Shown: positions 28,148-61,612, counted from the first letter of the stretch. The stretch: DNA of 64,000 nt from a virus (IMGVR_UViG_3300021256_000002:189297-253296), one strand, 5' to 3'. The notes: generated by a model from the letters alone, not told the origin. Numbers and translations: made by a program.

Positions 28148-28197
28148 TATTATTCACCTACCTTTATTCTTCTGTATTACGAATAAAACATTAATGT

Positions 28198-28425
28198 AAT
28201 GGGATATTTCGATTTGGTTCCATTGGCGTTCAAAGTATACCTCCTTTTCAATATAGGGGGCGAAGTGGTGGAATTGCTTAACCGTTTCTAATCGGGGCGT
28301 CTTTCTTTCTACTGGTTGGATGATTTGCTCAGACCAGACAGTTTGTTAGGCTTTGTCAGTATTATAGCCCCCATTTATGTATACTATTTGCGATTTGCTT
28401 GGAACCAATTTCCATATCCTATTCA
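28198..28425 (+). ncRNA. Candidate ~225-nt rod-shaped ncRNA
   Basis: AACA-N6-TAA at 28187-28199. Nested end-to-end helices GGATAT/ATATCC, TTGGTTCCA/TGGAACCAA, AGTATAC/GTATACT, GGGGGC/GCCCCC. G-U pairs favour the + strand. Confidence 0.6.
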
Positions 28426-28500
28426 TGACTATTTCTCTTTCTAAATATAATACACAAAAGAAAGCTAGAGCGATTGTGCTCTAGCTTTCTATCCAACTTT

Positions 28501-30925
28501 TTAGATAGTGCAGAAATTGTACAGGCTAATTGTTTCGTCTTTGATGAAACCGAAATCTGAATTAATTAAACCATTATTATGGTCAATCATAAAGCCTGTT
28601 CTTGGGAAGAAGACTTCCTTAAATGCACGTTTAAACTCAGTTGTAATTTCCTTGGTGATATTCAAAGTATCTCCATCAACAGTATCTTCACATAGAGTCG
28701 TTACTTCTATGCAGTTCTCTTATGAACTTCTCCATGTCACCATGGAAGTTGAGACTATATCTTTCTTCCTATATAGGAAGTACCCCATTTCGATTTAAGG
28801 GATTCTCACCCACTCACTTGAGCCCTACTCCTGTAGCCGATTCTAACGGCACCATTTGGATAGTCGTTGAACGTTCCTATTTTCATAAGCTTCGCTGCTG
28901 ATTGTCTCATTTGAGAGTTTCCAGCAATTAAAGGTTTGGTGAATCATAGATTACTCTATGAAACGACCTAATTTAAGTCAGCATTCAGAGATTGTAAACA
29001 CTGAATAGGTAAACTACAACTAAGGTCAGAATAATCATCCTTAACTGAGGCCACGTTCATAGCTAAATATGACCCCATATTGATTGTTGGATTCCGATTG
29101 AGTAAAATCGACGAGTCGAGTTTTTCATGCGTAAGGATATACTGCATGATGCTATATACCTTAGTATCAAATTCTCGATACGCATAATACCATCTCTCAT
29201 ATGCTTGTGAGTATGAATAACCTTCTAATTTAACCAGAAGGTTAACGATATCAGGCTTCCACAACTCACAGAACGCTACATCCTTTATATTCACATAGAT
29301 TCGTTACTTCTATGCCGTTCTCTTATGAACTGCTACATGTCTCCATGTAGAGTAGACTATATCACCAACTCATATAGAGTTGCTCTCTATTTCGAGTTCA
29401 CTTGAACCCTACTCCCATAAAGGGATAGTCGTTGAACATTCCTCCGTAGAGGCTTCGCTGCTGATTGTCTCATATGAGAGTTCCCAGCAATTAAGAGAGT
29501 TTTACATATTATATCACTATAATACGCCGCTAATAACTAACGGTAAGCGTACTTCATATGAACGCAATGACGCATCCGGTACAATAACGCATCTAGCTGC
29601 ATTGTTAATACGACCACCTAAAATCGATCTCCTTATACCTTACATTCACATAGAGTCGTTACTTCTATGCAGTTCTCTTATGAACTTCTGCATGTCATCA
29701 TGCAGAGTAGACTATATCTTCATCCTATTCGATATGAATAGGAGGCTGCTGTTTCGATTTAAGGGGTTTTCACCCGCTCACTTGAGCCCTACTCCTGTTG
29801 ACGAATTTCACGTCCTAAGGGATAGTCGTTGAACGTTCTCTCTTACGAGAGCTTCGCTGCTGATTGTCTCGTTTTGTGATAGCTTGTATCCACGAGATTT
29901 CCCAGCAATTAAGCAACTTTTCCTATACAATTACTCGTATAGGGACCTATAAAGTTAAGCCCTTCGTTTTCATGAATAGACGTAAATACAGAATCGAATA
30001 CCTGGTTAAGATTATTCTGTGCTCTAAAGAGCGTATTGTTAAGTTTTGCAATATTACTGGTTTTGATTTCATGCTCATCATTGATACGACAAACGTTACC
30101 ATATAAGGCGTTGTAACATCTATCTACTTTTCTATATGAGAATTTCTCATTAGAGAAGAATACTTCACGTAATACTGCGGAATAAACCGGAATTTTAGTT
30201 ACGAAGATTTTATTCTTATTCTCCATGATGAGGTCATATTGTGCCTTGCGGTTTTTCTTCTTCCGGTAGAAGAAATCCATAATCTCATCAAATCTTTCGT
30301 GGAATTCTATCATACCAATTCCGGCGAAAGGATTCTTGTTAAGGTCTACATCAGTCGTTCCTCCATAGAAACCATCAAGTTTCATATCTTTATCAAATCC
30401 AATGATTTGAGACAGAATAGAGGTTTTATTTGCTTTACCAAAGAACACATCAAGTTCTTTATAGAGTAATGGTTGAATGATAGAGAATCTTGCATCGTTA
30501 ATCACTATATAAGCAAAGAGCTTGAGGTTCACATCTACGAACTCAACCTTTGTCCCGCAATCAGGGCATCTACGACCTTTGAAAATCTTACCAATCATCT
30601 TACCACAATCGCATGAATATCTGTCGGCGAATGCGTTATCATCGAGCCAATCGGTGCCAAACAACGGAGAATGGATACCATACATTTCTTTAGTTCCTTT
30701 AGCCGATGGTTCAGAACTCTTATCGTTCTTAGGATTCTTCTTAAACGGTTTTGCTCTTACGATGAAACCGAATTTACGTTTCATATCGTTCTCAAAGTCA
30801 GCTTCCCAATCACGAATAACTGGCATAGGACCAATCGTCTCTGCATTGTACAGCTCAGGAACCAATTGCTGTGCAAGTTCGAGTTCTTTCGGCGTTAAGT
30901 TATAATCGATACCTATATTCTTCAC
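28501..30925 (-). CDS. rpoC: Multisubunit RNA polymerase beta-prime N-terminal subunit, four exons (30925-29958, 29637-29540, 29281-28976, 28679-28501; 516 aa spliced)
   Basis: Zn finger CDCG...CPDC. Splicing restores EGLIRRSILGGRINNAARCVIVP, RLPYVAF, NRNPTI and the catalytic NADFDGD. Frame is preserved at all three junctions. Confidence 0.93.
28680..28975 (-). mobile_element. Group I intron 3 of the beta-prime gene (296 nt, no ORF), inside the NADFDGD codons
   Basis: Exon ends GAC-T, intron ends in G, next exon starts TT-GAT-GGA-GAT. Core AATTGCTGGAAAC, AATCAGCAG, TTCAACGACTA, GATATAGTCT. Confidence 0.93.
29282..29539 (-). mobile_element. Group I intron 2 of the beta-prime gene (258 nt, no ORF)
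   Basis: Exon ends CCG-T (pairs with IGS GCGG), terminal G, restores TAT (Tyr); same core motifs. Confidence 0.92.
29638..29957 (-). mobile_element. Group I intron 1 of the beta-prime gene (320 nt, no ORF)
   Basis: Exon ends GGG-CT (IGS GGTCCCT); P10 CTTTATA pairs with the 3' exon TATAAGG; terminal G; same core. Confidence 0.92.
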
Positions 30926-30944
30926 GTTGATATACCTTCCTTTC

Positions 30945-31208
30945 TTATCTGCTAATCAGACTCATGATATACCTCGCATAATTCTCTGGAGTATGTTCAT
31001 CTGATGAGTCAAGATAGCTAAGATCATCTGGACAAACCGTGTCCGAGTATGAAATTGTAATTTTGCTTTCATCTCCTTTCTTAATGCTAAAAACCCGATA
31101 CAATTGTAATGCGCCGGGTTCACCATCTTCCACACAAGCTTTAAATTCAGGGTATGATTTATTAATCACATTAGCTGTCTTGTGTAAGAAGTCTACTAAA
31201 CTTAACAT
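30945..31208 (-). CDS. Hypothetical protein upstream of the beta-prime gene
   Basis: GAGGTG RBS, early promoter at ~31235. Confidence 0.75.
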   Translation of the reverse strand: MLSLVDFLHKTANVINKSYPEFKACVEDGEPGALQLYRVFSIKKGDESKITISYSDTVCPDDLSYLDSSDEHTPENYARYIMSLISR

Positions 31209-31358
31209 TTTTACTTCACCTCGGATTAATAATATATAATTGAATTGTAGGTTAAAAAATTGGGATTCATTGAACTATTCAGGAAATCCAAAACTCTAAA
31301 ATCTCAAATATATATTATATAGGTAGCCGAATAAGAAATACGCATATCTTGAAAGGAT

Positions 31359-31811
31359 GTGATTATTATGCGTATTAACGACATCGACAAACTGCCGAGC
31401 AATCCCAAAGGGGTTGCTATGTTTCTAGCCCTTTACGGGGGCGAAGAGATTACCATTCAGGTTCGTGAGAACCTGATGGTTCTTATCCCGGTGGATGATG
31501 ACCACTGGGATGTCGAGTTCAACGGTGAGTACTTAGGTACACAGGCCGTTGAGCAAGTCGCAAGTGGTATCTGCCAGTTCAAGCGGCAAGTCACCGCCGC
31601 AAACCGGTATCGGGCTTTCCAGCACGCTACCGCACAGCCAACCTGGCAACAGTCGGCTCCGCCACAAGGTGGTTATCCTCGTCTACCGCTCCAGCCGCAG
31701 AGTGGATATTCTCTGCCCCGCCGCACCACCACACCGGAACCTGATATCATTGATATTGGGTCCAGGTTGATTGGGTCGGTCTTCGGCGGCATCCGTCGCG
31801 GATTGTACTGA
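31359..31811 (+). CDS. Early hypothetical protein with P/Q-rich tail (monocistronic cassette)
   Basis: Promoter at 31308; likely start ATG 31368 behind GAAAGGATG; GC-rich; terminator at ~31815-31870. Confidence 0.8.
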   Translation: MIIMRINDIDKLPSNPKGVAMFLALYGGEEITIQVRENLMVLIPVDDDHWDVEFNGEYLGTQAVEQVASGICQFKRQVTAANRYRAFQHATAQPTWQQSAPPQGGYPRLPLQPQSGYSLPRRTTTPEPDIIDIGSRLIGSVFGGIRRGLY

Positions 31812-31925
31812 TTAGAGGAAGGAAGTTGGAGGGCACGGCCGATTCTCCAACTTCTTTCTTTTCTTCTTTTTGTATGAATCATCACAATTTTATAATGATT
31901 AATCGAAAATAAGGGGTGTAAAACT

Positions 31926-32951
31926 ATGTTCCATAATACAACTAAAATTTGGGAAGGTATTAAGAATGTTAAAATTCTTACTATCAATGATTTAGACCAT
32001 CAAGTAGCTCTGGCGTATGCATGTCAAGGGATACGTGAAATAGATAGCGACATTACTATCGAAATCATTGATTGCACATGCAAAGCGGTAGTCCCTCCCA
32101 TAGTAGAAAACCCTGTTGATGATACAATGATTTTATTTTTAGGATACGTTCCTAACATGATGTATTTACACAACGTGATTTGTATGGTAAAGGATTACCA
32201 TGTGATATATATCGATAATGATATAATCCGTTTACAGAATCTTCGTAATCTGGAATGTGCTAAGAATATCAACGGGTTGATTATTCCTAACTTCAGTATA
32301 GGTGTATTGACGTATATGTACTTCAAATACAATATGAGATACGCTACATATGAATGGTCAACTCAAGTATTCTGTAAGGCGTACAATTATCCGTTGGAAT
32401 TAACCAACCCTGTTGAAGCTGCAAAAGTTTTGAATTTGGTAGATAGACCGGTTACAGACATTTCGATGTATACGTTATATCCAAAGGAACTGAAGTTTGC
32501 TGAATTCCGTAGATGTTGTGTATATCAAAATATCCTTGATTCCAATTTGGAAGATTTGAATGATCCTGGTATAATCAGTACTCTTAATGATTATATTGAT
32601 GCAGAGACTCTTGATACAGCAGCTGAATCTACTGATGTAGCGAACAAGCGTATCATGAATAACGCATATAAAGGTGTTCTTCGTAAATGTGAACATCTGA
32701 AAGTAATTGCTATCAATACACCAGAAGGAACTGGAATGACTTTCATAAACGGTAAAGTATGGGATAAATTCCATCTTGGTATATCATTCCACTTTGACGG
32801 CAATATGTGGTACAAAGTATGGAGACTGGGTCTTGAACCTGAAAAGAAAATCAACTGCGCAAAGATTGCTGAATCTTATGGTGGTCATGGCAGAGAATCT
32901 TATGGCGAATTCAGAACATCCGGTCAATTAGAAGTTTTAGCGATTAACTGA
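31926..32951 (+). CDS. Degenerate DHH/DHHA1-like phosphoesterase
   Basis: NDLD near the N-terminus, YIDND where IDHH is expected, C-terminal IAESYGGHG. Confidence 0.55.
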   Translation: MFHNTTKIWEGIKNVKILTINDLDHQVALAYACQGIREIDSDITIEIIDCTCKAVVPPIVENPVDDTMILFLGYVPNMMYLHNVICMVKDYHVIYIDNDIIRLQNLRNLECAKNINGLIIPNFSIGVLTYMYFKYNMRYATYEWSTQVFCKAYNYPLELTNPVEAAKVLNLVDRPVTDISMYTLYPKELKFAEFRRCCVYQNILDSNLEDLNDPGIISTLNDYIDAETLDTAAESTDVANKRIMNNAYKGVLRKCEHLKVIAINTPEGTGMTFINGKVWDKFHLGISFHFDGNMWYKVWRLGLEPEKKINCAKIAESYGGHGRESYGEFRTSGQLEVLAIN

Positions 32952-32955
32952 CTAG

Positions 32956-32991
32956 AATCCCACATGAGGAATTACCTCATGTGGGATTTTT
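32956..32991. terminator. Terminator between convergent genes
   Basis: AATCCCACATGAGG/CCTCATGTGGGATT stem. Confidence 0.8.
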
Positions 32992-32994
32992 ATG

Positions 32995-33351
32995 TTAACG
33001 CTTAGCTATAACGATAGTCACCGTATTACCATCTGTTTTGGTAATTTCAGCTGAATATTCATCATGATTCCAAGCACAACTTGATTGACACTTCAAAAGA
33101 TGAATCAAGTCATCACCAAATTCAACATTCGTAGTCAGGATGAAAGAAAGAGTATCACTCAAAAGACACTCAACATCATCTATTTTTTTGATGATTTCAT
33201 CAGCCGCTATGATATTATAGGCATAAGCGAATTTCAAATAATGATTTGTTATCAAGTCTTCGAAATACGCAAGATCATTCAGATGCTTATCAAGAGTTTT
33301 GTTGAAGACTTGGATTCGATTTTTTTCCATACCAATCATCCTCGTGTCCAA
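32995..33351 (-). CDS. Hypothetical protein
   Basis: 118-aa ORF in operon orientation. Confidence 0.7.
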   Translation of the reverse strand: MDTRMIGMEKNRIQVFNKTLDKHLNDLAYFEDLITNHYLKFAYAYNIIAADEIIKKIDDVECLLSDTLSFILTTNVEFGDDLIHLLKCQSSCAWNHDEYSAEITKTDGNTVTIVIAKR

Positions 33352-33354
33352 CGT

Positions 33355-35751: not shown

Positions 35752-38700
35752 TTAAATCATGATATCCGATTCGTCAACAATCTTTTCGATGTGTAAACAA
35801 CCATCATGATAGTTGTTCTTCATCTTGAAAGAACATGCGTCTTTCATCAATTGATACTTCGCATCGTAGTAATTAATGGCATCTTTGCCACCAATCCATA
35901 TCACCAACGTACCTTCCTTTTCCGCTTCATTACAGAGTTCCTCCGCAATAGTATATTCTCTATTCTGAGGTTCTGGTGTACTATCAAAGTACAATCCATC
36001 TGTCTTAGCGAATGGGACGACTGCGCCCGAGAGGCCTGGCGAGGATGATGAATACGTATTAATATCCAGATTGCCAATAAACGATGGATGAACACCACGT
36101 CATTATCTTCATATAGGGTCGTTAATCCTATACCGTTCTCTTATGAACTGCTGCATGTCACCATGCAGATGAGACTATATCTTCATCCTTGATAATTATC
36201 AAGGAGCCTCCTGTTTCGATTTAAGGGGTTCTCACCCACTCACTTGAGCCCTACTCCTATTGACGAGTTTCACGTCCAAGGGATAGTCGTTGAACTTTTA
36301 ATTCATAATAATCCGCGCTTTTTTAAACTCTTTTTTCTTAAATAGACCAAGCTTCGCCATTGTTGTGATGTGAAATTTGGTATATCTATAAGTTTACGGA
36401 TTTTCTTAGTTTTTAATCCTTTTAAAATTAATGCGTCGACTTGCTCATGGTATTTGGTATAATCTGGTCTAGAATAAACGTTTGGAAACTCGATATCTTT
36501 AGTAAATTCTTTCCAAATATGTTTATTTTTTATATCTGATAATTCAGATGATGATAAGTTAGTCTTTTTGGTAATTTTAGAATAAGGTTCATTCTTAAGA
36601 AGCATTTTAATTGCTTTTTTGACCTGTTTTTCGGTATGAGTTGTTGCATGATGTGATATACCATGTGGTAGATTAATCAAATTGTTACGATAAGCTCGTT
36701 GAACGTTAGTTTGATTACTTACCCATTCTAAATTAGATGGTACATTATTAGATTTATTCCCATCGATATGATCTACTTGTGGTAAATTATCAGGGTTAGG
36801 AACAAATGCATCAGCTACCAGCCTATGAACTTTTTTCTTTTTACCTCTAAGACTTGCGTTAAGATATAACTCTCTAGGCTCTCCTGACTTAGGAAGCCTG
36901 CCGGTTTTCTGTAACTTTAATTTTTTACCAGTTATACGATTAATAACTTCACCTCTACTAGAAACAGAGTACATGTCATCAATCGCTTTCCAAATTTCAA
37001 TAGTTTCCATATATTTCCTTTCTAGGATTATTATGAATTATTTAGCTGCTGATTGTCTCATATGAGAGTTCCCAGCAATTAAAGAGGGTACAATATATGA
37101 TTACTCATATACGGACCAGTTATGTTTAGCCGTATATTGACATTGTGACTCGATTTACTTCCGATCGAATTCGGCAAGGATCTTCGTATAAGTTCGTTAA
37201 GCTTATACCGTTCTCTTATGAACTGCTCTATATCACTATAGAAGTTGAGACTATATCTTTCTTCCCATAGGGAAGTTACCCATTTCGATTTAAGGGATTC
37301 TCACCCACCACTTGGCCCTACTCCTGTAGCAGACTTTCACTGCGTCAATTGGATAGTCGTTGAACGTTCTCTCATATGAGAGCTTCGCTGCTGATTGTCT
37401 CTTTCGAGAGGTTCCAGCAATTAAGGTATTGACGAATATAGGATTACTCCTATAATCAGGCCCTGACAACCTTTAATGGTATACTTTAATGCGCTAAATG
37501 TATCAAGATCATTTACTAAGTCATCGAATCTCATGAGCTGACTGTTCTGCATAGCCTGTATTACGAGGTTTCCAGAGAAGCTGAATATATTCGTTATGAC
37601 TTGATCAATATCAACTTTATTACCAAATGTAAGAATTCGATTTCATTATCTTCATATAAGTTCGTTAGGCTTATACCGTTCTCTTATGAACTGCTATATA
37701 TTGCTATATAGATGAGACTATATCATCATCTCAGAGAGATGGTTTCTATTTTGAACCACTTGGTCCTATTAGTCGTTGAACGTTCCTCCGTAGAGGCTTC
37801 GCTGCTGATTGTCCCAGAGGGAGTTCCCAGCAATTAAGAAACTTTGCTAATACCATCGCTGATATTAGGCGCAAAAATCTACGCTTTCACCGATTCTCAT
37901 TGATAATAAAGATGCGATACATTCGCCCAAACGTAATCGTTTAGTTGACAAATCGAGGTTATTCTTCTGACGTAATTCAGGGAAATTCTGTACCATCCAG
38001 CGGACTATACTGTAGATGGATATCTTATTTACCTGATTGATTTTAAGAACATCCTTTGACGTCAGGTCCAAAAGACGTTCAAAGAAACGCATGGTACTCT
38101 TACCAGAGTCCATCATCTTATCTGTATTCTTAGTATACAAACTACCGAGCTGTCCTAGCCAGTAGTCCTTGGTTACAATGTCTTCAATATGGGTCTTTGG
38201 AGCAAAGCATTCTCCCAACATTCCAACCATCGCTTTGATATAATCAAAGTTATCGAAGAAATGCTTATTGACTACCAATACAACATGCTTATTTGCATTG
38301 AAGTAGTAGTAATCTTTATCTGGTTCATCGGGTAAATCTTCATTAGCAATAACGGAGATTATCCTATCTACCATATAATAGGTAAGAGTCTTTGCAAAAC
38401 CCATCTTACAGAAGTAGAACAGCAGTACAGAGATGCTTCTACGGAATACCTTCATATAGAATACATTGAAGGTATATTCTTTCTCAGAGAATATCTCTTT
38501 GATAGTAGCCTTTCTATAATTTACCGGGATTGGCTGTAACGATTTGAATACCAAACCATCTTTCACTACATAAGTAGATGAATCAACCAACTGGTAGATT
38601 AAGAAGTATCTTTTACCCTTGAGGAAATAATAATTATTCTTATCTCTCTTAGGTAACAAGATAGACCGCTTTACATAACGTACAGCTCCATTTACTTCTA

Positions 38701-46778: not shown

Positions 46779-47186
46779 TTACTCCCACGGGAAGCGGCTA
46801 GAGAAGCTGCTGCGTTTTACCGCAACTTCTTCTCTGATTTGATACTCGCGCTCTGCAGAGCGCGCGTCTCTACGCTCTTCTTCAGCGTAGTGGCGTGCTC
46901 TACGGAGTTCGTTGAACAACACACGATAACGTGCACTGTCGCTCGAGGTTGCGCGGGGGTCGCGGAGCCACTGCTCCAACGAGCGGCATTCACGTTCGAG
47001 CCGCTCGACTTCGCTCAACCAGTAATTGCACCGGCGAGCGTGCAGTTCATACTTATCGTATGACTGCTGGGCGCGGTCTGCCGCCCATTGGTAATCATCC
47101 TCAGCTTGTTGGCGACGAGATTCCTTAATGGAATCCGTAACATCATCCAGAACGCCGAGTAACCAGTTACCAAGGATCGTTGCCAT
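46779..47186 (-). CDS. Early R/E-rich helical hypothetical protein (monocistronic cassette)
   Basis: AGGAGG RBS, promoter at ~47292, terminator at 46728-46769, GC-rich. Confidence 0.8.
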   Translation of the reverse strand: MATILGNWLLGVLDDVTDSIKESRRQQAEDDYQWAADRAQQSYDKYELHARRCNYWLSEVERLERECRSLEQWLRDPRATSSDSARYRVLFNELRRARHYAEEERRDARSAEREYQIREEVAVKRSSFSSRFPWE

Positions 47187-47349
47187 GATAAATTCCTCCT
47201 AAGAATTATCATCTCCCGTACGCATTGGGAGGAATCCTAAAAGCTATCTTAGCGAATGAAGTTGGATTCGACTCTTCATCTACCAATATAATATATATTT
47301 GAGGTAATCAACTTTTAGGTATTATATTCTAAGCCATAAACATAATAGT

Positions 47350-47455
47350 AATGCGAATTTCTTTTTTTGCCATATATCATATACACTGGCTCTCTGCACG
47401 ACGCGGATTGCTAAGAAGGTATACAACCTGGAGGGGTTGTATACCTTCTATTTTG
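47350..47455 (+). ncRNA. Candidate ~105-nt late sRNA
   Basis: AAACATAATAGTAA promoter (47338-47351), no credible sense ORF, 3' hairpin GAAGGTATACAACC/GGTTGTATACCTTC followed by TATTTT. Confidence 0.5.
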
Positions 47456-47770
47456 TCAGCCACGTACAATAGTAACAACTTGTGGTGCTTTGTTAGCAAA
47501 TTCTTCTAAACCGATTATCATTGTACGAAGTAATGTCTCGGTTTGAAGATCTGGAATGGATTTAAGCTTTACGTGAAATTTACCTTCATCTATATCGCAT
47601 TCCACATTATGATGCAAATAGTCTCTAAGACCATACATTGTTGTTTGGGCTAATGTAGATATACCGGCACAGACGATGTCATATCCTTTTGGAGCTACAT
47701 TACTATGCCCGTCGATATCATACCCAACAACCTGACCTTTGATGTTTTCTTTGATTCTTACAACAATCAT
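47456..47770 (-). CDS. prp: Prp ribosomal-processing cysteine protease (DUF464)
   Basis: IDGHS...GYDIVCAGISTL with catalytic His and Cys; TMIIGLEE..P; 104 aa. Confidence 0.92.
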   Translation of the reverse strand: MIVVRIKENIKGQVVGYDIDGHSNVAPKGYDIVCAGISTLAQTTMYGLRDYLHHNVECDIDEGKFHVKLKSIPDLQTETLLRTMIIGLEEFANKAPQVVTIVRG

Positions 47771-54030: not shown

Positions 54031-56649
54031 CTACCGTTGAAATATTATTGTAGCATTCTTAGGTATCAGATGCTTATATTCAGAATCAGTTACAATGAAG
54101 TTAACTGGATACTCATTGAACATCGTGCTCTGAGTAATCAAGAATGCTTGCTCACACTTAAGTGTATCACGAAGTATACCTTCAATAGACGAGAAGAATC
54201 TTTCCTTGTTGATTTGGTGCATAGGACCATCAACTTCGTCTAATAGAGGAATATTATACTTCGTCATGAATTGTGATAATATAGCAAACGAAATTGCTAA
54301 CTTAGCCACGGAAGCTTCAGCCTGAGAAGTATCTCGAATATCTTTTACCGTAAATCCTTTGGTATAATACGGGATGTTGAATACTCCTTCTTTGATATCA
54401 AATTTCTTGATTCTGAAGTCTCCTTGATATATGTTCTTGATGATTTCATTTGCTATTGTGCATAAAGCTCTGCAATAAAGTTTGATATGTATAAGCGGAA
54501 TACCATCAGATAGAGAAGTTGCATCACGTAAATCCGTGATGTAATCATACTTTTCTTGAATCTGCAAGATATCTTCTTCCAGCTCTTTAAAGAGTTTGAT
54601 TTTCATCTTATCTTCTTCTATCATCTTTTCAGTATCTTCAATCTTATACGTCAATTCAGAAATACGACTATCATACCCGGCTTTCACTTTGAGATACGAA
54701 TCACGTAATTCTATTTGAGATTCAAGTCTAGCAAGCTCATTCTTTCGTACAGATATATCATTATTGATTCTCTGCCTATCGAGATTATACTTGACTGAAT
54801 TGGTATACTCATTCATCTGGTCACGAGTGAGGTTTATCTGTTTGGTTATATCGGATAACTGCTCACGTACACTAGATACTTCTTTTCTTTTCGCTGCACG
54901 TTTAGCTTCAATCTCTTGAAGAAGTTCTTCAACTTCTTCTTTAGTACTCCCACCAGACTTACTCAATTGAATCTCTAACTCAGTAGCCATCTTTTCACGA
55001 GTATCCTTATTCTTCTGATACTCTTCATACGCTTCAATATGACTTAGAATAGATTGTATTTTATCTCTATCAACTATCATATTCTTATCCATATAAAGAA
55101 TCGCATTAAGAATAGTATTTACCGATACGGTATATTCTGTGATATCAGAATCTCTCATAGAAAGTACCTTTGTGATTGAATAGAAGCTCTGAGCTATTTC
55201 CGAAGCATCTTCACATTTTTCAATCTCACTATCAATACCTTCAAGAGTTTCTTTATCCTTCTTATTAGCCGTACCAGCTTGATAGAACGGACATACCTTC
55301 GATTCAGTACAACCTGATGGAACGAAAAATACCATTGTTTTCTTTGGTAATTTCAAAGATTTCAATCTCTTTTGAGTATGAAGTTCTACCAAACGATTCT
55401 TTAGATATTCATCTAACTCTGCGATGTTATTTTGATACTCCACCATGAGTTGTAAGAAGTATCTACGTCCAGCCGAAGTCAAATTCATGATATTATCATA
55501 ATGGAAGTATATCATATTGATTTTATCAACATCCGACTTCAGTTCGTCTCGAGTCATTGTAGGATTATCCTTATACATCTCTTCGTAGTCATCAATAGCC
55601 TTTTCAAGCTTATTTATGAGCTCATTAGTTGACTCTAGATATATCGCATCGAGAGCATCACTAGATGTACTACGAAGTTTATCAATATCCTTATCATACG
55701 AATCAGCTTCGCTTAATAACCTACTATAGCTTTCCATCATTTGGATTTTCATATCTTCCAATATTTCTATCTTATGATTGAAAAGCTCAAGTACATCTAA
55801 CCCAGTCTTGATAAAAACTGTTTTTGGTTGTTTCAAAGAATCACGTTGATTACGAAGCTCATCTATCTCATCATTCAAGATATTAACTTTCTTATCAACT
55901 TCTTCTAACTCCTCCACATTCACTTTACCTTTATACGTGTAGAAGTTAGCTATTTCAGATTCTTTCTCTTTCTTCAGTTTCTCTAAAGAATTCAACCTGT
56001 TGCTCAGTACATTTTCAGCTACAAGTATATCTGAAATACCGAGTCTATCTTTCTTCTCAATTGTATTCTTGAGAAGTGCATTTAACGCAGATGACCTTGA
56101 CCTGAATAACTTATTAGCACTCAAATACTTATCAACCGCAGTTAAGAGTTTACCCATAAAGGTAAATCTCTCAGATGAAGTTAACTCAACAAAGTTCTTA
56201 ACATTACCACCAAGACGAATCAACTTCAAGAAATTGATATCTATATCCATTTCTCTTTGGACGATATCAAGGAAACTTTTTACTGTTCCAGGTTTATTCA
56301 GTTCTTCTCCATCTTTACGGAAATATGAACGAATTTGCCTAGAATTATTTTCGCCTTGCCATTTATAGAAATGCTCAATTTCATAGATATGCTTCTTGGT
56401 AGAGAAAATGGCAAACTTTCTACCATCTTTACCAGGGATGATTAAGTCTTGATCGTCTCTTGCTTCCAAATGACCTAGGGTAGCAAACGGATGAAGATTG
56501 GACAGAAGTCCAGTCTTCCCCGTTCCATTATTCCCAATGATTAAGTTGATTCCATTCGGAGCGTTACGAAAGTCAAGTTCTATCTCACTTAAATTCATCC
56601 CAGCTCTTAATAGAGCAAAGTTTTCTAGCTTGATATACTCAAGTTTCAT
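54031..56649 (-). CDS. sbcC: SbcC/Rad50-like SMC ATPase
   Basis: Walker A GNNGTGKT, long coiled coils, central C..CPF hook, signature TSQAE, Walker B LLDEVD. Confidence 0.9.
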   Translation of the reverse strand: MKLEYIKLENFALLRAGMNLSEIELDFRNAPNGINLIIGNNGTGKTGLLSNLHPFATLGHLEARDDQDLIIPGKDGRKFAIFSTKKHIYEIEHFYKWQGENNSRQIRSYFRKDGEELNKPGTVKSFLDIVQREMDIDINFLKLIRLGGNVKNFVELTSSERFTFMGKLLTAVDKYLSANKLFRSRSSALNALLKNTIEKKDRLGISDILVAENVLSNRLNSLEKLKKEKESEIANFYTYKGKVNVEELEEVDKKVNILNDEIDELRNQRDSLKQPKTVFIKTGLDVLELFNHKIEILEDMKIQMMESYSRLLSEADSYDKDIDKLRSTSSDALDAIYLESTNELINKLEKAIDDYEEMYKDNPTMTRDELKSDVDKINMIYFHYDNIMNLTSAGRRYFLQLMVEYQNNIAELDEYLKNRLVELHTQKRLKSLKLPKKTMVFFVPSGCTESKVCPFYQAGTANKKDKETLEGIDSEIEKCEDASEIAQSFYSITKVLSMRDSDITEYTVSVNTILNAILYMDKNMIVDRDKIQSILSHIEAYEEYQKNKDTREKMATELEIQLSKSGGSTKEEVEELLQEIEAKRAAKRKEVSSVREQLSDITKQINLTRDQMNEYTNSVKYNLDRQRINNDISVRKNELARLESQIELRDSYLKVKAGYDSRISELTYKIEDTEKMIEEDKMKIKLFKELEEDILQIQEKYDYITDLRDATSLSDGIPLIHIKLYCRALCTIANEIIKNIYQGDFRIKKFDIKEGVFNIPYYTKGFTVKDIRDTSQAEASVAKLAISFAILSQFMTKYNIPLLDEVDGPMHQINKERFFSSIEGILRDTLKCEQAFLITQSTMFNEYPVNFIVTDSEYKHLIPKNATIIFQR

Positions 56650-56654
56650 TTAAA

Positions 56655-56915
56655 TCAATCCTTTATGAAATAATTTAAAATATACTTAGCACAAAGTACC
56701 ATGGTTGTAGTAACTAGCACACAATGTAGCGTGAAGAATTTGTGTTCTTCATAAAACGTATCTGCCGCATACAAAGCAATCGCAATTGGCGCTACTACAT
56801 ATATTAATGTTTTGGCCAGCATATATAAACATACTACAGACATTGAGATTAGTACACCTACGACGGTGATGAATCCACGTAAAAATGGATTATTTAACAA
56901 CTGAGATTTTTTCAT
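56655..56915 (-). CDS. Small multi-TM membrane protein
   Basis: Start ATG 56915 behind AGAAAGGAG, downstream of the early promoter at ~56945. Confidence 0.7.
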   Translation of the reverse strand: MKKSQLLNNPFLRGFITVVGVLISMSVVCLYMLAKTLIYVVAPIAIALYAADTFYEEHKFFTLHCVLVTTTMVLCAKYILNYFIKD

Positions 56916-56997
56916 TCTTTCATCTCCTTTCTCAAATGTATAATATATATTTAAAAGTTTAAAAGAAAAATCCAGACTCCGAAGAGTCTGGATTGTT

Positions 56998-57177
56998 TTA
57001 CATTTTCTTTGTAGCTGTTTTGTCCATTTCGGTAAGCACATACTCGGCCATTTGCTTAAGTAGATTATTTGCAGATACTCCATTAGCCTCAGCTACTTTA
57101 TTTAATTTATCGAGTAAGCTCTTTGGAAATCTGAAAGTTTTTGTAATCGTAGGCTCTTCTTTTTTTACCGTAAACAT
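56998..57177 (-). CDS. 59-aa ribbon-helix-helix (Arc/CopG-like) DNA-binding protein, not in the ORF track
   Basis: MFTVKKEEPTITKTFRFPKSLLDKLNKVAEANGVSANNLLKQMAEYVL...; AGGGG RBS right after the helicase stop. Confidence 0.8.
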   Translation of the reverse strand: MFTVKKEEPTITKTFRFPKSLLDKLNKVAEANGVSANNLLKQMAEYVLTEMDKTATKKM

Positions 57178-57190
57178 ACTTTAATCCCCT

Positions 57191-58672
57191 TTATAATTTG
57201 ATGATGTTAATGGACTTGAATAGTGTTTGGTATAGCTTCATTCGTTGATGGTACTGAGAACGTATATTCTCAAATCCAATGTTTACCAACTCAATATACC
57301 ATGATTCGGTATCTTCAGTCCATTTTCTAAGTCTCCCTGATGATTGGTCCCCTAATCCGTCAAATCGAAATGCTTCTGTATTAATAACCGCACGTAGCCC
57401 TGGCAAATTTACCCCAACGCCAAGGGACTTGATTATTGATACGATAATATCACATTCCTTTTTAACTCGTTCCTTCTCATCTTTAGATATGGATGAGTTG
57501 AACACACCAATTTTCTTATCTGGATACACCTCCTTTAACCAATCTGCTATTATATCACAAGATGATATCTTAGCGCATAAAATCAATGTACGAAATTCAT
57601 TCTTTACAGCGAACTTGTACACAACGTCGTTCAATATCTCAAAGAACATACCGTCTGCATTCACAAGATAATCTGCATATTTCTTTACATCGAACATTCC
57701 TCTACGCTTACACATCATCTTTTCACCAATTGATGGATGAGAATTGTATTCGATTGCAATCATTCGAATATGTTTCTTACCAACATTCTTTCCCAACTTT
57801 ACTGGGTCGAACTTTGGTACTGAGTAGAAACATCTCTGGAATACTTTATTCTCCTCTTCATCTGAGCGTTTCATTGTCGCTGTGAGATATATGTTTTTGA
57901 ATATATTGGTGTGTGTATCGAGTAATATGATATTATGGAACATCATATTCGTTTCATCAATTACCTTCAACCCAACACGTAATTTCAAGAACAAATCCGT
58001 CACAACTTCCCAAGTCATTTCTTCATATCGTTTGACGAACGAATTGATTGACTGATGAAGCGCAATGAACACGTAATACTTATCTGGGTCAATCTTTCCA
58101 TCCATGATTTTCACCATGGCATCTGCATCAAGAACAAGTATTCGTTTCTCATCAATATCAGTGTATTTAGTCAATTCAGTTATCCAGCTTAACGCAAGTT
58201 CTTTCGTATGTACAATGATAGCAGTCTTACATTTGTAATATGCCATCATTACGATAGAAGCGAATGTCTTACCTTGACCGGTCTGTGCATTACAACACAG
58301 CATCGAATGATTTTTGTTATCAGCATATTCTTCTTCTCCAAGAAGAAACCGAATCATCATTCGTTGAATATCATCTTTTGGTTCACCAAAAGACCTTATT
58401 GGAATATTATCAAACGGGTCATGGTCGGTATCAAATATAACCTTTTCCATAAGGTACTTCTCTACCGTCCAATAACTTACACCAGCGGGAAATCTTAGTA
58501 TACGATTCTTATCATCGTATACAAATCCTACCGGTTCATAATAACCTGCACCACTGAACCCTCCACGTTTACGATACATTACCCATTTAGATAGATAACG
58601 TTCAAATTTCATATTAGATCCAATGATGTAATCTTTAACTTCATAATGAGTTCTATACCGTATAACTTGCAT
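57191..58672 (-). CDS. Superfamily 2 helicase (UvsW-like)
   Basis: QTGQGKT, VIDET, LTAT, GVGVNLPGL, QSSGRLR. Confidence 0.88.
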   Translation of the reverse strand: MQVIRYRTHYEVKDYIIGSNMKFERYLSKWVMYRKRGGFSGAGYYEPVGFVYDDKNRILRFPAGVSYWTVEKYLMEKVIFDTDHDPFDNIPIRSFGEPKDDIQRMMIRFLLGEEEYADNKNHSMLCCNAQTGQGKTFASIVMMAYYKCKTAIIVHTKELALSWITELTKYTDIDEKRILVLDADAMVKIMDGKIDPDKYYVFIALHQSINSFVKRYEEMTWEVVTDLFLKLRVGLKVIDETNMMFHNIILLDTHTNIFKNIYLTATMKRSDEEENKVFQRCFYSVPKFDPVKLGKNVGKKHIRMIAIEYNSHPSIGEKMMCKRRGMFDVKKYADYLVNADGMFFEILNDVVYKFAVKNEFRTLILCAKISSCDIIADWLKEVYPDKKIGVFNSSISKDEKERVKKECDIIVSIIKSLGVGVNLPGLRAVINTEAFRFDGLGDQSSGRLRKWTEDTESWYIELVNIGFENIRSQYHQRMKLYQTLFKSINIIKL

Positions 58673-58748
58673 GAGCTTAGTAGCCTCCTTAATAAAGTAA
58701 AGTAGCCTAATGAAAGGCTACTTTACCTACATTATGTTTTAATTGAAG

Positions 58749-59201
58749 TTATTCGTTTATATCATTAAGAGTTTTTGAGATTCTAGTGATAGATTCAACC
58801 GTGCCAATTTTAGCAATCGTGTTGTATCTAACTATAGATCCGTCAGGAAGTACATACGTATAGTACACCATCGCACCATGACGCCATTTAGCAGCTAACT
58901 TACCTTCAGTAACCTTAGCTGAATCGAAATCACTTCCTACGGAAATACCGTTGACTGTACTACCAAATCCTTTGAAGTCAACCTGGAGAATTTTGTTGGA
59001 GTTTGAAGGTTTACGCACATATATCATGTGCGATAATTGGATTACCGTGCAATAGCCGTCATCAACAACGCTAATGCTATTAAGACGAATATCTCCTAAC
59101 TGCATATCAACGTCTACATTGTAAGGTGCTACAGTAGCGGAGCATACAAGGGATCCCATTAACAGTAAAGCCGCTGAAATTCCAGCAATCTTCTTCTTCA
59201 T
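58749..59201 (-). CDS. Exported protein with signal peptide
   Basis: MKKKIAGISAALLLMGSLVCSA; TVNGISVGS motif. Confidence 0.75.
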   Translation of the reverse strand: MKKKIAGISAALLLMGSLVCSATVAPYNVDVDMQLGDIRLNSISVVDDGYCTVIQLSHMIYVRKPSNSNKILQVDFKGFGSTVNGISVGSDFDSAKVTEGKLAAKWRHGAMVYYTYVLPDGSIVRYNTIAKIGTVESITRISKTLNDINE

Positions 59202-59252
59202 CTCAATTCATTCCTTTTCTCTAAATAGAATTAAAAACTTGTAAGTGTAATT

Positions 59253-59984
59253 TTACACTAATTTCTGAGTGATGACTTCTTCTTCACCATCACCATTGAT
59301 AAAACGGACGTTGATATCAACATCAAGGTCAAGTACTTCAGCCCATTTCTGGAAGTACTTTGTTGACATCGGACCGTCTTTCTTTGATAAAGCATACCTC
59401 ATATTCGAGATATCGTAATCGTTCTTAAATTTACCACGATACTGTCGAAGTGAAATCTTCTTACGCAAGATTACCTCCTTGACGATTCTTTTAAAGATAT
59501 CATCATTCTCTTTAATCTTAGGAGAGTATAAATCTTCTTCCTTTTCTACTTCAACAGGAATCATCGCTTTGAACTTAGAACGGTCATTTACATCATACAT
59601 CAACGCTGCTGGACTGAAATGATTTACTCTATCAGCAGCAAAGGTAAACTTATCTTCATCAGAAGTTGGATCTACCCAGATATATTCAGGGTCGCCTTTT
59701 TTCTTAGAGTCTTTATTGATATAGACTCTACCCGGAAGTAAACTTACTTCCGGTTTCAATTTACCAGCACAAATGTACACATAGTCCCCATGGAAATATG
59801 CGTAATTCTTCTTGATTTTGTGTTCGGCTGGATCGAGAACTTCATACACTTCATCATCAACTTCGATGAAGTGTCTAACCTCCATCACCTTTAGCGGCTT
59901 TCCCTCCTGGGTGAGCAAGCTCTTTTCGTCTGAGCTTTTCTTTGAGTTTTTTTGCTTGACTTTCGTCAATTTTTCTTCTGGCAT
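59253..59984 (-). CDS. Hypothetical protein, possible C-terminal HTH
   Basis: ISNMRYAL...MSTKYFQKWAEVLD; AGAGAGG RBS inside the upstream gene. Confidence 0.7.
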   Translation of the reverse strand: MPEEKLTKVKQKNSKKSSDEKSLLTQEGKPLKVMEVRHFIEVDDEVYEVLDPAEHKIKKNYAYFHGDYVYICAGKLKPEVSLLPGRVYINKDSKKKGDPEYIWVDPTSDEDKFTFAADRVNHFSPAALMYDVNDRSKFKAMIPVEVEKEEDLYSPKIKENDDIFKRIVKEVILRKKISLRQYRGKFKNDYDISNMRYALSKKDGPMSTKYFQKWAEVLDLDVDINVRFINGDGEEEVITQKLV

Positions 59985-60648
59985 CGGTGTCTGCCTCTCT
60001 TTCTGAAATCTGGTTTTCTAACTGATATGGAGCGATTGCTTGTGGTTCATTGGCGTTAGTTGTAAACCCTTCATCAAGCCCCATTAAATAAGCGGTGTTA
60101 AACATCGCTTGGCTTAACGACCATAAATCTAGGTCGTTTAAGAAGTTGCGAAGCGCAACAAATTCGGATAATGTTAACTCAACATGGTTAATAGTACCAG
60201 TAAGTTCAATCATTATCCCTGGATAAGATGTGGTTTCTTCATGAATAACTGTTGGGTGAATCCCAACTGTCATTTCATTGATTCTTTCATATACAGACCA
60301 TTTACTCCTCCCTTCATCATCTAAGTCTCTGGTTACAATCAATCCTAGTTCATCGTCTTCTGTGAACATTTCTTTGGTAGCTATATTTTTCATCATTCTG
60401 TCGAGTGATGCAACCATCTGTATTTTACCCATATAGCTCAAATTGATATGTCGTTTTACGACTACATTCTCGAGATATGGAAAATCTATTCTTACGAACG
60501 GTATAAAGTTTAAGTATACGGATTGAGATCGTTCTTCTACGTATTCTTTTGAAGATACAACATTACGATCTGGTGGGAAAAACACTACCATACTTATGCC
60601 GAGTTTATTGATGTTCAATAATTTTCTAGAAAGGATATTAGTTCTCAC
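59875..60648 (-). CDS. Hypothetical protein
   Basis: 257 aa; early promoter at ~60700; overlaps the next gene by 110 nt. Confidence 0.75.
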   Translation of the reverse strand: MRTNILSRKLLNINKLGISMVVFFPPDRNVVSSKEYVEERSQSVYLNFIPFVRIDFPYLENVVVKRHINLSYMGKIQMVASLDRMMKNIATKEMFTEDDELGLIVTRDLDDEGRSKWSVYERINEMTVGIHPTVIHEETTSYPGIMIELTGTINHVELTLSEFVALRNFLNDLDLWSLSQAMFNTAYLMGLDEGFTTNANEPQAIAPYQLENQISEREADTDARRKIDESQAKKLKEKLRRKELAHPGGKAAKGDGG

Positions 60649-60775
60649 CGTCCTAGCACAACCTTTCTTAATTATATTTTAATTGTAACCATGCATATAA
60701 TATATAAATGAAATTAAAGTTGAAGTATTGAGATAGGGTATTTTATCCCTATCTCAATACAATATCAAGGCCGTA

Positions 60776-61354
60776 TTACCACTTGAACTGTTTCTGCGTC
60801 GGAACCATCGTCCGTTTCGGGTTGAAGAACTTCTTACCCTGGTTAACAGCACGCTGTGCAACCTGAGACGACGGTCTACCTTTACCAACAACAGTGTCAG
60901 GATATGCCTTAGGAATCTTCTTAACGCCATTGGTAGCCCAATTGCGAATCTGCTGGTTGGCCAGCGTGGTAGCTTTAGAGCCATAAATCTTATCCAGGTC
61001 GGATTCGAGTTCGCGCTCCATTTTCCAAACGGTCAACAGCTTCTTGTACTTCGCATTGTTGCTCTTACGAGCCAAGTTCAACACGTTTGCTTTGCGCAGA
61101 TGTTTCAGACGAGACTTGCGGTCAAGGCGCACGATGGAAGTTTCCATTGCCATACCCATGAGTTCAGAGATGTTATCCATCTCATCATAAGATTCAGCAA
61201 TATCGCAAATTTCATCCTGCGATGCAATATCCATCAAATACGCGTTAGCGCATATGCTTTCTTCAGCCGCTTCAATCAGCCCTTCTGCAGGATCTGCACC
61301 GATAGACATACCATCGGATTCGGCTAACGGATCCAGATCTTCAAAATCTATCAT
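60776..61354 (-). CDS. Late protein with acidic N-half and basic C-half, probable head protein
   Basis: GACA-N6-TAA at 61395-61383; A-x-E sites (AEES, AMET) resemble prohead-protease cleavage sites. Confidence 0.65.
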   Translation of the reverse strand: MIDFEDLDPLAESDGMSIGADPAEGLIEAAEESICANAYLMDIASQDEICDIAESYDEMDNISELMGMAMETSIVRLDRKSRLKHLRKANVLNLARKSNNAKYKKLLTVWKMERELESDLDKIYGSKATTLANQQIRNWATNGVKKIPKAYPDTVVGKGRPSSQVAQRAVNQGKKFFNPKRTMVPTQKQFKW

Positions 61355-61419
61355 TTACAGTCATTCCTTTCTATGTTGGATTTTAAATAGATGTCTTAAA
61401 TCCTAGATAAATAATCATT

Positions 61420-61515
61420 TAAAACCACGGTTGACCTAGAGGCCCATCCACGGTAGCCTCTAGGTCTATCTATTCTATAGGAGGAAAATTAATGAAGAAA
61501 TTCTCAACAGCCTTT
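61420..61515 (-). ncRNA. Candidate ~95-nt late sRNA with anti-SD/anti-AUG segment
   Basis: AAACATAATAGTAA (61527-61514) identical to the 47338 copy. Transcript contains UUUCUUCAUUAAUUUUCCUCCU followed by an 11-bp hairpin (61433-61466). Confidence 0.5.
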
Positions 61516-61612
61516 ACTATTATGTTTGCTTCTTACGGATAATAGAAAAATCTCTATATTTCAAAAAAGATTTTAACCATATATTATAGTTACGTAAAGG
61601 AGGAAAAAAATA

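What the first reader, a model, noticed from the sequence alone, without database searches (positions are those of the whole stretch)
28187..61527. Candidate system: late non-coding RNAs antisense to translation-initiation regions
Seen: the three AACA-type late promoters (28187 +, 47339 +, 61526 -) do not lead to a protein gene, whereas the GACA/TACA/CACA copies do. Two are identical over 14 nt (AAACATAATAGTAA) and both transcripts carry GAAUUUCUU near the 5' end. Each RNA has a pyrimidine-rich segment complementary to an SD and/or AUG region, plus a strong helix. Inferred: a phage-encoded family of trans-acting antisense RNAs that silence early or host mRNAs late in infection. I do not recall this being described for jumbo phages, but could not search.
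Basis: partly seen in the sequence, partly recalled or inferred. Interest (0 to 1): 0.8.

Follow-up and report, generated by a model that had tools for sequence, protein, structure and literature searches.

The report
Orphan late-promoter small RNA units
An uncultured giant phage from ruminant guts carries about ten short gene-less units, each a late-type promoter followed by a terminator, that probably make small non-coding RNAs late in infection; two of the three studied keep an exposed anti-ribosome-binding-site box, but no RNA and no target has been shown.

Summary
The window is the last 64 kb of a 253-kb AR9-like jumbo phage assembled from a ruminant gut metagenome.

ACA-N6-TAA is a genuine promoter motif:
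- It is enriched about 3-fold between genes.
- It is depleted 4- to 5-fold inside genes on both strands, at this spacing only.

Thirteen intergenic copies head no protein gene. Ten of these are AACA-type, against 6 of 48 gene-proximal copies (p = 2e-5).

At all three reported sites, relatives at 73-91% neighbour-protein identity keep AACA and TAA (0 of 49 core changes) while the spacer drifts (20 of 42). The terminator hairpins at sites 2 and 3 are kept through compensatory changes. The opposite-strand 14-18-codon ORFs are not conserved.

A CCUCC box survives at sites 1 and 3 while its flanks diverge. Site 2 has no conserved box.

The units share only the promoter, so they are a class and not a homologous family. 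Complementarity to phage start regions does not exceed controls, and no transcript data cover the units.

Verdict: these are probably real late non-coding RNA units. The trans-acting anti-start-region mechanism is plausible for two of the three but unproven. Late antisense and non-coding RNAs are already reported for AR9, phiR1-37 and phiKZ. Other notes of this scan flagged site 1 and related cassettes in the same genome.

The parts
28187..28199 (+). Site 1 late-type promoter AACATTAATGTAA. The predicted start is A at 28198, by analogy with AR9.
   Evidence: Relatives L022 (AACAATCTGATAA) and L039 (AACAATTGGGTAA) keep AACA, TAA and the following TGGGAT while the spacer changes.
28198..28489 (+). 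Site 1 predicted RNA of about 230-290 nt. It has a rod-like fold whose 5' end pairs with about 28405-28425. Its end is uncertain: a weak hairpin with a U-run lies at 28283-28299, and a hairpin at 28460-28489 has its good U-tract on the minus strand.
   Evidence: Fold of -89.7 kcal/mol, z = -4.9, against -74.6 for the opposite strand. The L022 counterpart folds the same way with different sequence, z = -5.3. Terminator scan.
28236..28254 (+). Site 1 conserved box UAUACCUCCUUUUCAAUAU (CCUCC at 28240-28244), largely unpaired in the predicted fold.
   Evidence: Kept as UAUACCUCCUUUUCAUAUA in L022 while the flanks diverge.
28177..28233 (-). Opposite-strand 18-codon ORF (TTG start, SD AAGGAGG). Judged not to be a conserved protein.
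   Evidence: In L022 and L039 the conserved bases TCCCATTA are read in another frame, and L022 has ATG-TGA at the SD-proximal start.
47339..47351 (+). Site 2 late-type promoter AACATAATAGTAA. The predicted start is at 47350.
   Evidence: L038 has AACAATATGATAA and L036 has AACATAGTAGTAA at the same place.
47350..47457 (+). Site 2 predicted RNA of about 105 nt. It has a single-stranded A/U-rich 5' part, a second hairpin at about 47387-47413, a 16-bp terminator at 47414-47449, and the tail AUUUUGUC.
   Evidence: Fold of -40.1 kcal/mol, z = -6.2. Terminator scan on the plus strand only. In L038 the terminator arms differ at at least 7 positions, all compensated, and the loop UGGAG and the tail are kept.
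47329..47373 (-). Opposite-strand 14-codon ORF with no SD. Judged not coding.
   Evidence: A 1-nt insertion in the A-run in strain L006 shifts the frame. The L038 version gives an unrelated 26-codon ORF after MA(K/N)K.
47281..47322 (-). Early-type promoter (upstream element plus TATATATTAT at 47297-47288) of gene 46779-47186. It sits back to back with the site 2 promoter.
   Evidence: Genome-wide list of about 55 TATATATTAT(A) boxes. It matches the AR9 early consensus in PMC5312081.
61514..61526 (-). Site 3 late-type promoter AACATAATAGTAA. The predicted start is at 61515.
   Evidence: Relatives carry AACATATATGTAA (L018), AACATGTATGTAA (L019), AACATAATAGTAA (L020) and AACATATAAGTAA (L016).
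61418..61515 (-). Site 3 predicted RNA of about 85-98 nt. It has a variable body, the box UUCCUCCUA (CCUCC at 61484-61480), a hairpin at 61466-61433, and the tail AACCGUGGUUUUAAA.
   Evidence: The box is kept in 5 of 5 relatives, 10-14 nt before a hairpin whose sequence differs in each with compensated pairs. L018 and L019 have two U-G pairs that only the top strand can form; their fold energies are -50.0 versus -34.3 and -45.3 versus -30.0 kcal/mol for top versus bottom strand.
61492..61542 (+). Opposite-strand 16-codon ORF (SD GGAGGA). Judged not to be a conserved protein.
   Evidence: In relatives the same SD is followed by a 4-codon ORF (L020), by 40- and 42-codon ORFs in different frames (L018, L019), or by no start codon (L016).
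61383..61395 (-). GACATCTATTTAA, the late promoter proper of gene 60776-61354, downstream of the site 3 unit.
   Evidence: A metatranscriptome contig covers 60926-61370 and stops about 14 nt short of the predicted start at 61384. This is a weak hint only.
12133..12219 (-). It consists of TACAAGTAAGTAA, a 45-nt G-less C/U-rich body with two UCCC motifs, and a hairpin with U-runs on both strands.

Best explanation
The three sites are self-contained late transcription units of an AR9-like jumbo phage. Each has a short promoter of the type read by the phage's non-virion RNA polymerase (AACA-N6-TAA). Each has a non-coding body of roughly 100 nt (site 2), 90 nt (site 3) or 230-290 nt (site 1). Sites 2 and 3 end at an intrinsic-terminator hairpin.

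They belong to a genome-wide set of about ten such gene-less units, and almost all of these use the AACA variant with an A/T-only spacer. The products are small non-coding RNAs made late in infection.

Inferred, not shown:
- The RNAs of sites 1 and 3 use a conserved, unpaired CCUCC-containing box to pair with Shine-Dalgarno regions of the GGAGG type. Such regions are commoner at early than at late first cistrons. Pairing would lower their translation, in the manner of C-rich-box sRNAs of Firmicutes.
- The site 2 RNA has no such box. It more likely acts in cis on read-through of the convergent late operon, or it has another role.
For: Shown by sequence:
1. ACA-N6-TAA sits 15-45 nt before SD and ATG at 48 genes. 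It is enriched between genes and purged inside them on both strands, at spacing 6 only. An intergenic copy is therefore unlikely to be idle.
2. AACA is tied to gene-less sites, p = 1.8e-5.
3. In relatives of all three sites the seven core bases never change (0 of 49) while the spacer changes in 20 of 42 positions, p = 8e-9.
4. The terminator hairpins of sites 2 and 3 are kept by compensatory changes. Their U-rich tails, and two U-G pairs, fit the top strand only.
5. The boxes UUCCUCCUA (site 3, 5 of 5 sequences) and UAUACCUCCUUUUCA (site 1, window and L022) persist while the flanks diverge beyond alignment.
6. The site 1 RNA, and its L022 counterpart, fold into a rod that starts at the predicted first base. 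The arm sequences differ between the two.
7. The top strand folds as well as or better than the bottom strand in every unit.
8. GGAGG occurs in 23 of 44 early and 13 of 59 late first-cistron start regions, p = 0.002.

From the literature: the AR9 late consensus is AACA-N6-TA/G, with the last base as the start. Seven AR9 late promoters drive antisense RNAs (PMC5312081).
Against: - No transcript has been observed. The promoter class is called 'late' and its start point is assigned only by analogy with AR9.
- Exact complementarity of the RNAs to the rest of the genome (13-15 nt at most) is no better than that of reversed controls (12-15 nt).
- Duplex energies with early and late start regions do not differ significantly.
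- The CCUCC boxes are equally an SD on the opposite strand, usually followed by a start codon. The strand under selection is therefore not proven.
- Site 2 has no conserved box.
- Site 1 has no clean terminator on its own strand.
- More distant relatives (55-60% neighbour-protein identity) lack the units at sites 1 and 3. No relative that distant was recovered for site 2.
- There is no Rfam match.
Confidence: 0.5

Rival explanations
1. The promoters fire, but the RNAs have no function of their own. In this view the units are promoter-terminator pairs that act locally. They would work as insulators or by transcriptional interference or cis-antisense pairing with read-through from neighbouring operons. 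Alternatively they are leftovers of mobile promoter and terminator cassettes.
For: - Sites 2 and 3 sit back to back with early promoters.
- The site 2 unit converges on the late Prp operon, which has no U-tract terminator of its own on its strand.
- The bodies of the RNAs evolve very fast.
- There are no trans targets above chance.
Against: The CCUCC boxes at sites 1 and 3, and the long-range helix of site 1, are conserved within otherwise diverged bodies. A pure insulator or interference role does not require this.
Confidence: 0.25
2. The real products are the opposite-strand micro-ORFs (18, 14 and 16 codons) or their translation. The AACA motif would then be a by-product of their shared C-terminal T-[IL]-M-F codons.
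For: - Sites 1 and 3 have strong SDs at ideal spacing: AAGGAGG, 6 nt, TTG; and GGAGGA, 6 nt, ATG.
- An SD plus a start codon is retained in 4 of 5 site 3 sequences and in the window and L022 at site 1.
- The three peptides end in [IF]T[LI]MF.
Against: - The peptides are not conserved. Relatives give a 4-codon ORF, ORFs of about 40 codons in different frames, or no start codon at all.
- At site 1 the conserved bases are read in different frames.
- A 1-nt indel occurs in a close strain at site 2, which also has no SD.
- TIMF does not survive where the spacer changes, although AACA and TAA do.
- No promoter is seen for that strand at site 3.
- The hairpin tails and U-G pairs fit the other strand.
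Confidence: 0.1
3. The motifs are not active promoters at these places. They would be chance or structural A/T-rich sequences, and nothing is transcribed from them.
For: - The motif has only seven fixed bases.
- No RNA contig covers the units in the one metatranscriptome available. That library is not suited to small RNAs.
Against: - The motif is purged elsewhere in the genome.
- The core is invariant and the spacer free in eight relatives across the three sites.
- A hairpin follows on the same strand in each relative of sites 2 and 3.
Confidence: 0.08

Closest known systems
Late-promoter-driven antisense transcripts of Bacillus phage AR9 (Lavysh et al. 2017, PMC5312081)
   Same: The promoter grammar is the same (AACA-N6-TA/G, read by the non-virion multisubunit RNA polymerase). 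The early promoter type is also the same (ATATATTAT-N6-G). In AR9, seven late promoters drive antisense RNAs that appear mostly late.
   Different: The AR9 RNAs were reported as antisense to annotated genes. They were not described as terminator-bounded intergenic units with a conserved box. In this phage most protein-gene late promoters are GACA, and AACA marks the gene-less units. Nothing here has been measured.
ncRNAs of Yersinia jumbo phage phiR1-37 (PMC4848604), and ncRNA candidates of phiKZ and PAK_P3 (PMC10914365, PMC4933390)
   Same: These are small non-coding or antisense RNAs of large lytic phages. Several are antisense to gene 5' ends, some are abundant late, and their function is unknown.
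   Different: Those RNAs were found by RNA-seq. Many are UTR-derived or processed and lack a promoter of their own. The units here are predicted from promoter, terminator and conservation only.
C-rich-box sRNAs of Firmicutes such as RsaE/RoxS and the UCCC-motif Rsa RNAs of Staphylococcus aureus (from general knowledge, not tested here)
   Same: They have their own promoter, a short body, an unpaired C/U-rich box close to an intrinsic terminator, and a proposed pairing with G-rich Shine-Dalgarno sequences.
   Different: There is no sequence or Rfam relationship. The box here is CCUCC, the exact anti-SD core, so it would not be selective for particular mRNAs. No target has been identified.
Phage antisense RNAs that block a ribosome-binding site, such as P22 sar and P1/P7 c4 (from general knowledge)
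   Same: These are phage-encoded small RNAs that pair with a start region to stop translation.
   Different: They have one defined cis- or near-cis target in an immunity circuit of temperate phages. The units here have no defined target, and the phage is a lytic-type jumbo phage.

Membership tests
AR9-type non-virion RNA polymerase late promoter | AACA, six free bases, then T and a purine start (AACA-N6-TA/G) | tested here: met
   All three sites match. The consensus is taken from PMC5312081.
AR9-type non-virion RNA polymerase late promoter | The motif sits at a fixed short distance upstream of many phage genes and is over-represented there | tested here: met
   48 intergenic copies lie within 75 nt of an SD-led ORF. 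There are 57 intergenic copies at spacing 6, against 13-26 at other spacings.
AR9-type non-virion RNA polymerase late promoter | The phage encodes split multisubunit RNA polymerases | tested here: met
   The protein of 43301-45592 matches RNA_pol_Rpb2_6 with E = 1e-21. DNA matches fall on genes annotated as jumbo-phage RNA polymerase beta and beta'. Group I introns interrupt these genes.
AR9-type non-virion RNA polymerase late promoter | Mapped transcription start at the last base of the motif, with late timing | not testable with these tools
   Only assembled contigs of one metatranscriptome were available. One contig ends 14 nt short of the predicted start of the GACA promoter at 61395.
Base-pairing small regulatory RNA | Own promoter and own terminator enclosing a non-coding body | tested here: met
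   Met for sites 2 and 3. The terminator of site 1 is unclear. No conserved ORF lies on either strand.
Base-pairing small regulatory RNA | A conserved, unpaired seed region | tested here: inconclusive
   Present and conserved at sites 1 and 3. Absent at site 2, where CUCC is paired in L038. The strand under selection is not proven.
Base-pairing small regulatory RNA | Target complementarity beyond chance | tested here: not met
   The longest exact matches are 13-15 nt, against 12-15 nt for reversed controls. The early-versus-late duplex energy difference gives p = 0.10 and 0.075. Host targets cannot be tested because the host is unknown.
Base-pairing small regulatory RNA | The RNA is detected in cells | not testable with these tools
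   No suitable small-RNA data exist. One search gives no cover of the units, which is no evidence either way.
   The only shared element is GAAUUUCUU in two of the three. It is at chance level and absent from relatives. The folds differ.
Type I toxin-antitoxin pair (small toxic peptide with an antisense RNA) | A conserved small hydrophobic peptide long enough to span a membrane, opposite the RNA | tested here: not met
   The ORFs have 14-18 codons and are not conserved in sequence, frame or existence.
Any described RNA family (Rfam 15) | A covariance-model match | tested here: not met
   The window gives only group I introns at gathering score. Permissive scans of site 1 and of five other unit regions give nothing credible.

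The most novel reading that the evidence does not exclude
The phage makes, from its strongest late-promoter variant, small RNAs that display the anti-Shine-Dalgarno core CCUCC in the open. These act as general decoys for canonical GGAGG start regions. Late in infection they would damp translation of early phage and host mRNAs, while late mRNAs, which mostly carry interrupted SDs (GGAAG, GGATG, GGTG), escape. This would be an RNA-based early-to-late translational switch in a jumbo phage.
Probability: 0.15. Interest if true: 0.8.

Novelty: new member of a known kind. Interest (0 to 1): 0.5.

Why it matters
Jumbo phages with their own RNA polymerases are known to make late antisense and non-coding RNAs, but none of these RNAs has a known function.

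This genome offers a clean, sequence-defined set. A promoter variant (AACA with an A/T spacer) marks gene-less units. Their promoters, terminators and, in two cases, an anti-SD box are held by selection while everything else drifts. That gives concrete, testable candidates for RNA-level control of the early-to-late switch.

It also gives a simple rule for finding such units in other AR9-like genomes: a late-promoter motif that is purged everywhere except where it is used. If the anti-SD reading is wrong, the units still map where late antisense transcription is built into the genome.

Tried and rejected
- RNA evidence. The only RNA run that held part of the region (X20, bovine gut metatranscriptome, assembled contigs) has no contig on any unit. 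It does cover neighbouring genes at low depth. Such libraries miss small RNAs, so this is no evidence either way.
- Relatives in IMG/VR. These gave only a 25%-identity relative.
- The metagenome scan. It returned only short contigs that did not reach the sites.
- A scan of IMG/VR for the 14-mer AAACATAATAGTAA. It returned over 100 unrelated single hits, as expected for an A/T-rich 14-mer.
- The pattern AACAWWAWWGTAA. It occurs once in the distant 247-kb relative G001. The record behind L014 was not searchable.
- MAFFT and RNAalifold alignments of site 1 with L022, and of the site 3 tails. These misaligned the boxes. Covariation was therefore read by hand from per-sequence folds.
- Leaderless ORFs. 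AUG at +2 of the site 1 and site 2 RNAs opens frames of 30 and 56 codons. They are not conserved: L022 reads the conserved box in another frame, and site 3 and the other units lack them.
- The lead that the site 3 RNA matches 15 nt of the start region of the gene at genome 180975 (-), and that the site 1 box matches the start region of the gene at genome 74298 (+) with one bulge. Both are within the range of the controls.
- Type I toxin-antitoxin and riboswitch readings. No conserved peptide and no Rfam match were found.

Full report
**What the window is.** The window is the last 64 kb of a single 253,296-bp contig. The first 127 bases of the contig recur at its end, which indicates a circular assembly. 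Near-identical DNA is held by sheep, bovine and other gut metagenomes.

The genome is an AR9/PBS1-like jumbo phage:
- Short DNA matches fall on jumbo-phage RNA polymerase beta and beta' genes.
- The protein of 43301-45592 matches RNA polymerase domain Rpb2_6.
- Five group I introns interrupt minus-strand genes.
- About 55 copies of an extended TATATATTAT(A) box stand in front of genes. This box matches the AR9 early consensus AAATATATATTAT-N6-G (PMC5312081).

**The promoter motif is real.** The AR9 late consensus is AACA-N6-TA/G, with the last base as the start. In this genome, NACA-N6-TAA occurs 81 times, 57 of them between genes, typically 15-45 nt before an SD and start codon. The first base is G in about half of the copies.

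Other spacings serve as the control:
- ACA-N6-TAA has 57 intergenic copies, against 13-26 at spacings 2-11.
- Inside genes it has only 14 sense and 10 antisense copies, against about 40-75.

The motif is therefore used where it stands between genes and removed elsewhere. A retained intergenic copy is unlikely to be idle.

**The observation.** Sites 2 and 3 share AAACATAATAGTAA, and a third 13-nt copy lies at genome 179375 (-).

With an objective rule (no SD-led ORF of 25 codons or more within 75 nt), 13 intergenic copies are gene-less and 10 of them are AACA. Of the 48 gene-proximal copies, 6 are AACA (p = 1.8e-5). The gene-less copies also have A/T-only spacers before GTAA. Six AACA copies head genes, and a TACA copy at 12219 (-) in the window is also gene-less.

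Three further AACAAAAAAGTAA copies are the A-runs of opposite-strand terminators in a repeated cassette.

GAAUUUCUU is present in both RNAs. However, it is at chance level and absent from relatives.

**Anatomy.**
- Site 2: promoter at 47339, a body of about 64 nt, a second hairpin, then a 16-bp hairpin at 47414-47449 with the tail AUUUUGUC. This is a terminator on the plus strand only. The unit lies between the stop of the late Prp-peptidase gene, which converges on it, and an early promoter that points the other way.
- Site 3: promoter at 61526 (-), a 49-nt body ending in UUUUCCUCCUAUAG, a hairpin at 61466-61433, and a U-rich tail. Then, 40 nt on, comes the GACA promoter of the structural gene 60776-61354.
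- Site 1: promoter at 28187. The RNA folds into a rod that starts at its first base, with the CCUCC stretch largely unpaired (-89.7 kcal/mol, z = -4.9). It has no clean terminator on its own strand.

**Relatives.** Neighbouring proteins led to contigs at graded distance.

| Site | Window | Relatives |
|---|---|---|
| 1 | AACATTAATGTAA | AACAATCTGATAA (L022), AACAATTGGGTAA (L039) |
| 2 | AACATAATAGTAA | AACATAGTAGTAA (L036), AACAATATGATAA (L038) |
| 3 | AACATAATAGTAA | AACATATATGTAA (L018), AACATGTATGTAA (L019), AACATAATAGTAA (L020), AACATATAAGTAA (L016) |

The motif sequences are read. The seven core bases never change (0 of 49). The spacer changes in 20 of 42 positions (p = 8e-9).

The site 2 hairpin in L038 differs at seven or more stem positions, all compensated. 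Its loop and tail are kept.

The site 3 hairpin has a different sequence in each lineage, with five to six compensated pairs between lineages. In L018 and L019, two U-G pairs can form only in the top strand. Their fold energies are -50.0 versus -34.3 and -45.3 versus -30.0 kcal/mol for top versus bottom strand.

The bodies diverge beyond alignment, yet two boxes persist:
- UUCCUCCUA stays 10-14 nt before the hairpin in all five site 3 sequences.
- UAUACCUCCUUUUCA stays at site 1 in the window and L022.

The L022 RNA also folds as a rod from its 5' end, using different arm sequences. More distant relatives (55-60% identity) lack the units.

**The opposite-strand micro-ORFs.** Sites 1 and 3 have excellent SDs, but the peptides are not conserved.
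- At site 3, the same SD is followed by 16, 4, 42 or 40 codons in different frames, or by no start codon at all.
- At site 1, the conserved bases are read in different frames.
- At site 2, there is no SD, and one close strain carries a 1-nt insertion in the ORF.

The shared T-I/L-M-F ending follows from the promoter motif on the other strand. It disappears where the spacer changes.

**Function.** The step from 'unit' to 'trans-acting antisense RNA against start regions' is inference.

In its favour:
- The conserved CCUCC boxes are exposed in predicted folds.
- GGAGG is commoner in early (23 of 44) than in late (13 of 59) first-cistron start regions (p = 0.002).

Against it:
- The RNAs of sites 1 and 3 bind start regions better than shuffles, as any CCUCC-bearing sequence would. 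The early-late difference is not significant, and the other units do not differ from shuffles.
- The longest exact complementarity anywhere in the genome is 13-15 nt, which equals the reversed controls.
- Site 2 has no conserved box.

No Rfam family matches, and no transcript data cover the units.

**Comparison with what is known.** AR9 has late promoters that drive antisense RNAs (PMC5312081). phiR1-37 has ten ncRNAs, several opposite gene 5' ends (PMC4848604). phiKZ and PAK_P3 have ncRNA candidates (PMC10914365). The kind is therefore known, but no function has been assigned to any of these RNAs. What is new here is a promoter variant that marks gene-less units, together with a conserved anti-SD box in two of them.

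**Verdict.**
- The units are probably real late non-coding RNA genes (about 0.5-0.6).
- The anti-SD mechanism is a fair hypothesis for two of the three (about 0.3 given that the units are real).
- 'One family' is not supported.

Noticed in passing
window 28730-29967 (-) and 37226-37890 (-): Five group I introns (Rfam RF00028, 73-100 bits) interrupt minus-strand genes. The first three lie in an RNA polymerase subunit gene next to site 1.
   Followed up: no
whole genome (G000): ACA-N6-TAA is depleted 4- to 5-fold inside genes on both the sense and the antisense strand, at spacing 6 only. Spurious late promoters appear to be selected against genome-wide.
   Followed up: yes
window 12133-12219 (-): Another gene-less unit. 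It consists of TACAAGTAAGTAA, a 45-nt body without a single G and with two UCCC motifs, then a hairpin with U-runs on both strands. It sits back to back with the early promoter at 12250 (+).
   Followed up: partly
window 47190-47322 (-); genome 16441 (-), 101256 (-), 110273 (+): An early promoter followed by the same leader of about 100 nt (attggtagatgaag...cttcattcgctaagatagctt) recurs before unrelated early genes. The same leader appears in relative L022.
   Followed up: no
genome 134738 (-), 183187 (-), 183493 (-) (outside the window): Three copies of AACAAAAAAGTAA are followed directly by the same UUCG-loop hairpin. On the other strand this is a classical terminator, so a late promoter motif may be embedded in a terminator's A-run.
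   Followed up: partly
genome 74104 (+), 124717 (+), 179375 (-), 181009 (+), perhaps 70644 (+): Further AACA-WWAWW-GTAA units with bodies of 40-105 nt and strong terminators. The 181009 unit is antisense to a 31-codon ORF that has its own early promoter and SD.
   Followed up: partly
L016:4714-4800 (-): In a relative at 83% neighbour-protein identity, a tRNA-Tyr(GTA) gene and its terminator sit between the site 3 unit and the late gene. Other relatives carry about 300 nt of unrelated sequence there, so this is a variable spot.
   Followed up: partly
genome 1-127 and 253170-253296 (window 63874-64000): The first 127 bases of the contig are repeated exactly at its end. This indicates an assembly overlap and a circular or terminally redundant genome of 253,169 bp.
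   Followed up: yes
window 63476-63520 (+): CACATCTGAGTAA forms part of the stem of a hairpin (ATCTGAGTAATGAGA / TCTCATTACTCAGAT) that is followed by a U-run, just before the gene at 63535. A promoter-like motif lies inside a terminator-like hairpin.
   Followed up: no
whole genome: First cistrons behind early promoters have canonical GGAGG SDs about twice as often as those behind late promoters. The late ones often carry GGAAG, GGATG or GGTG.
   Followed up: partly
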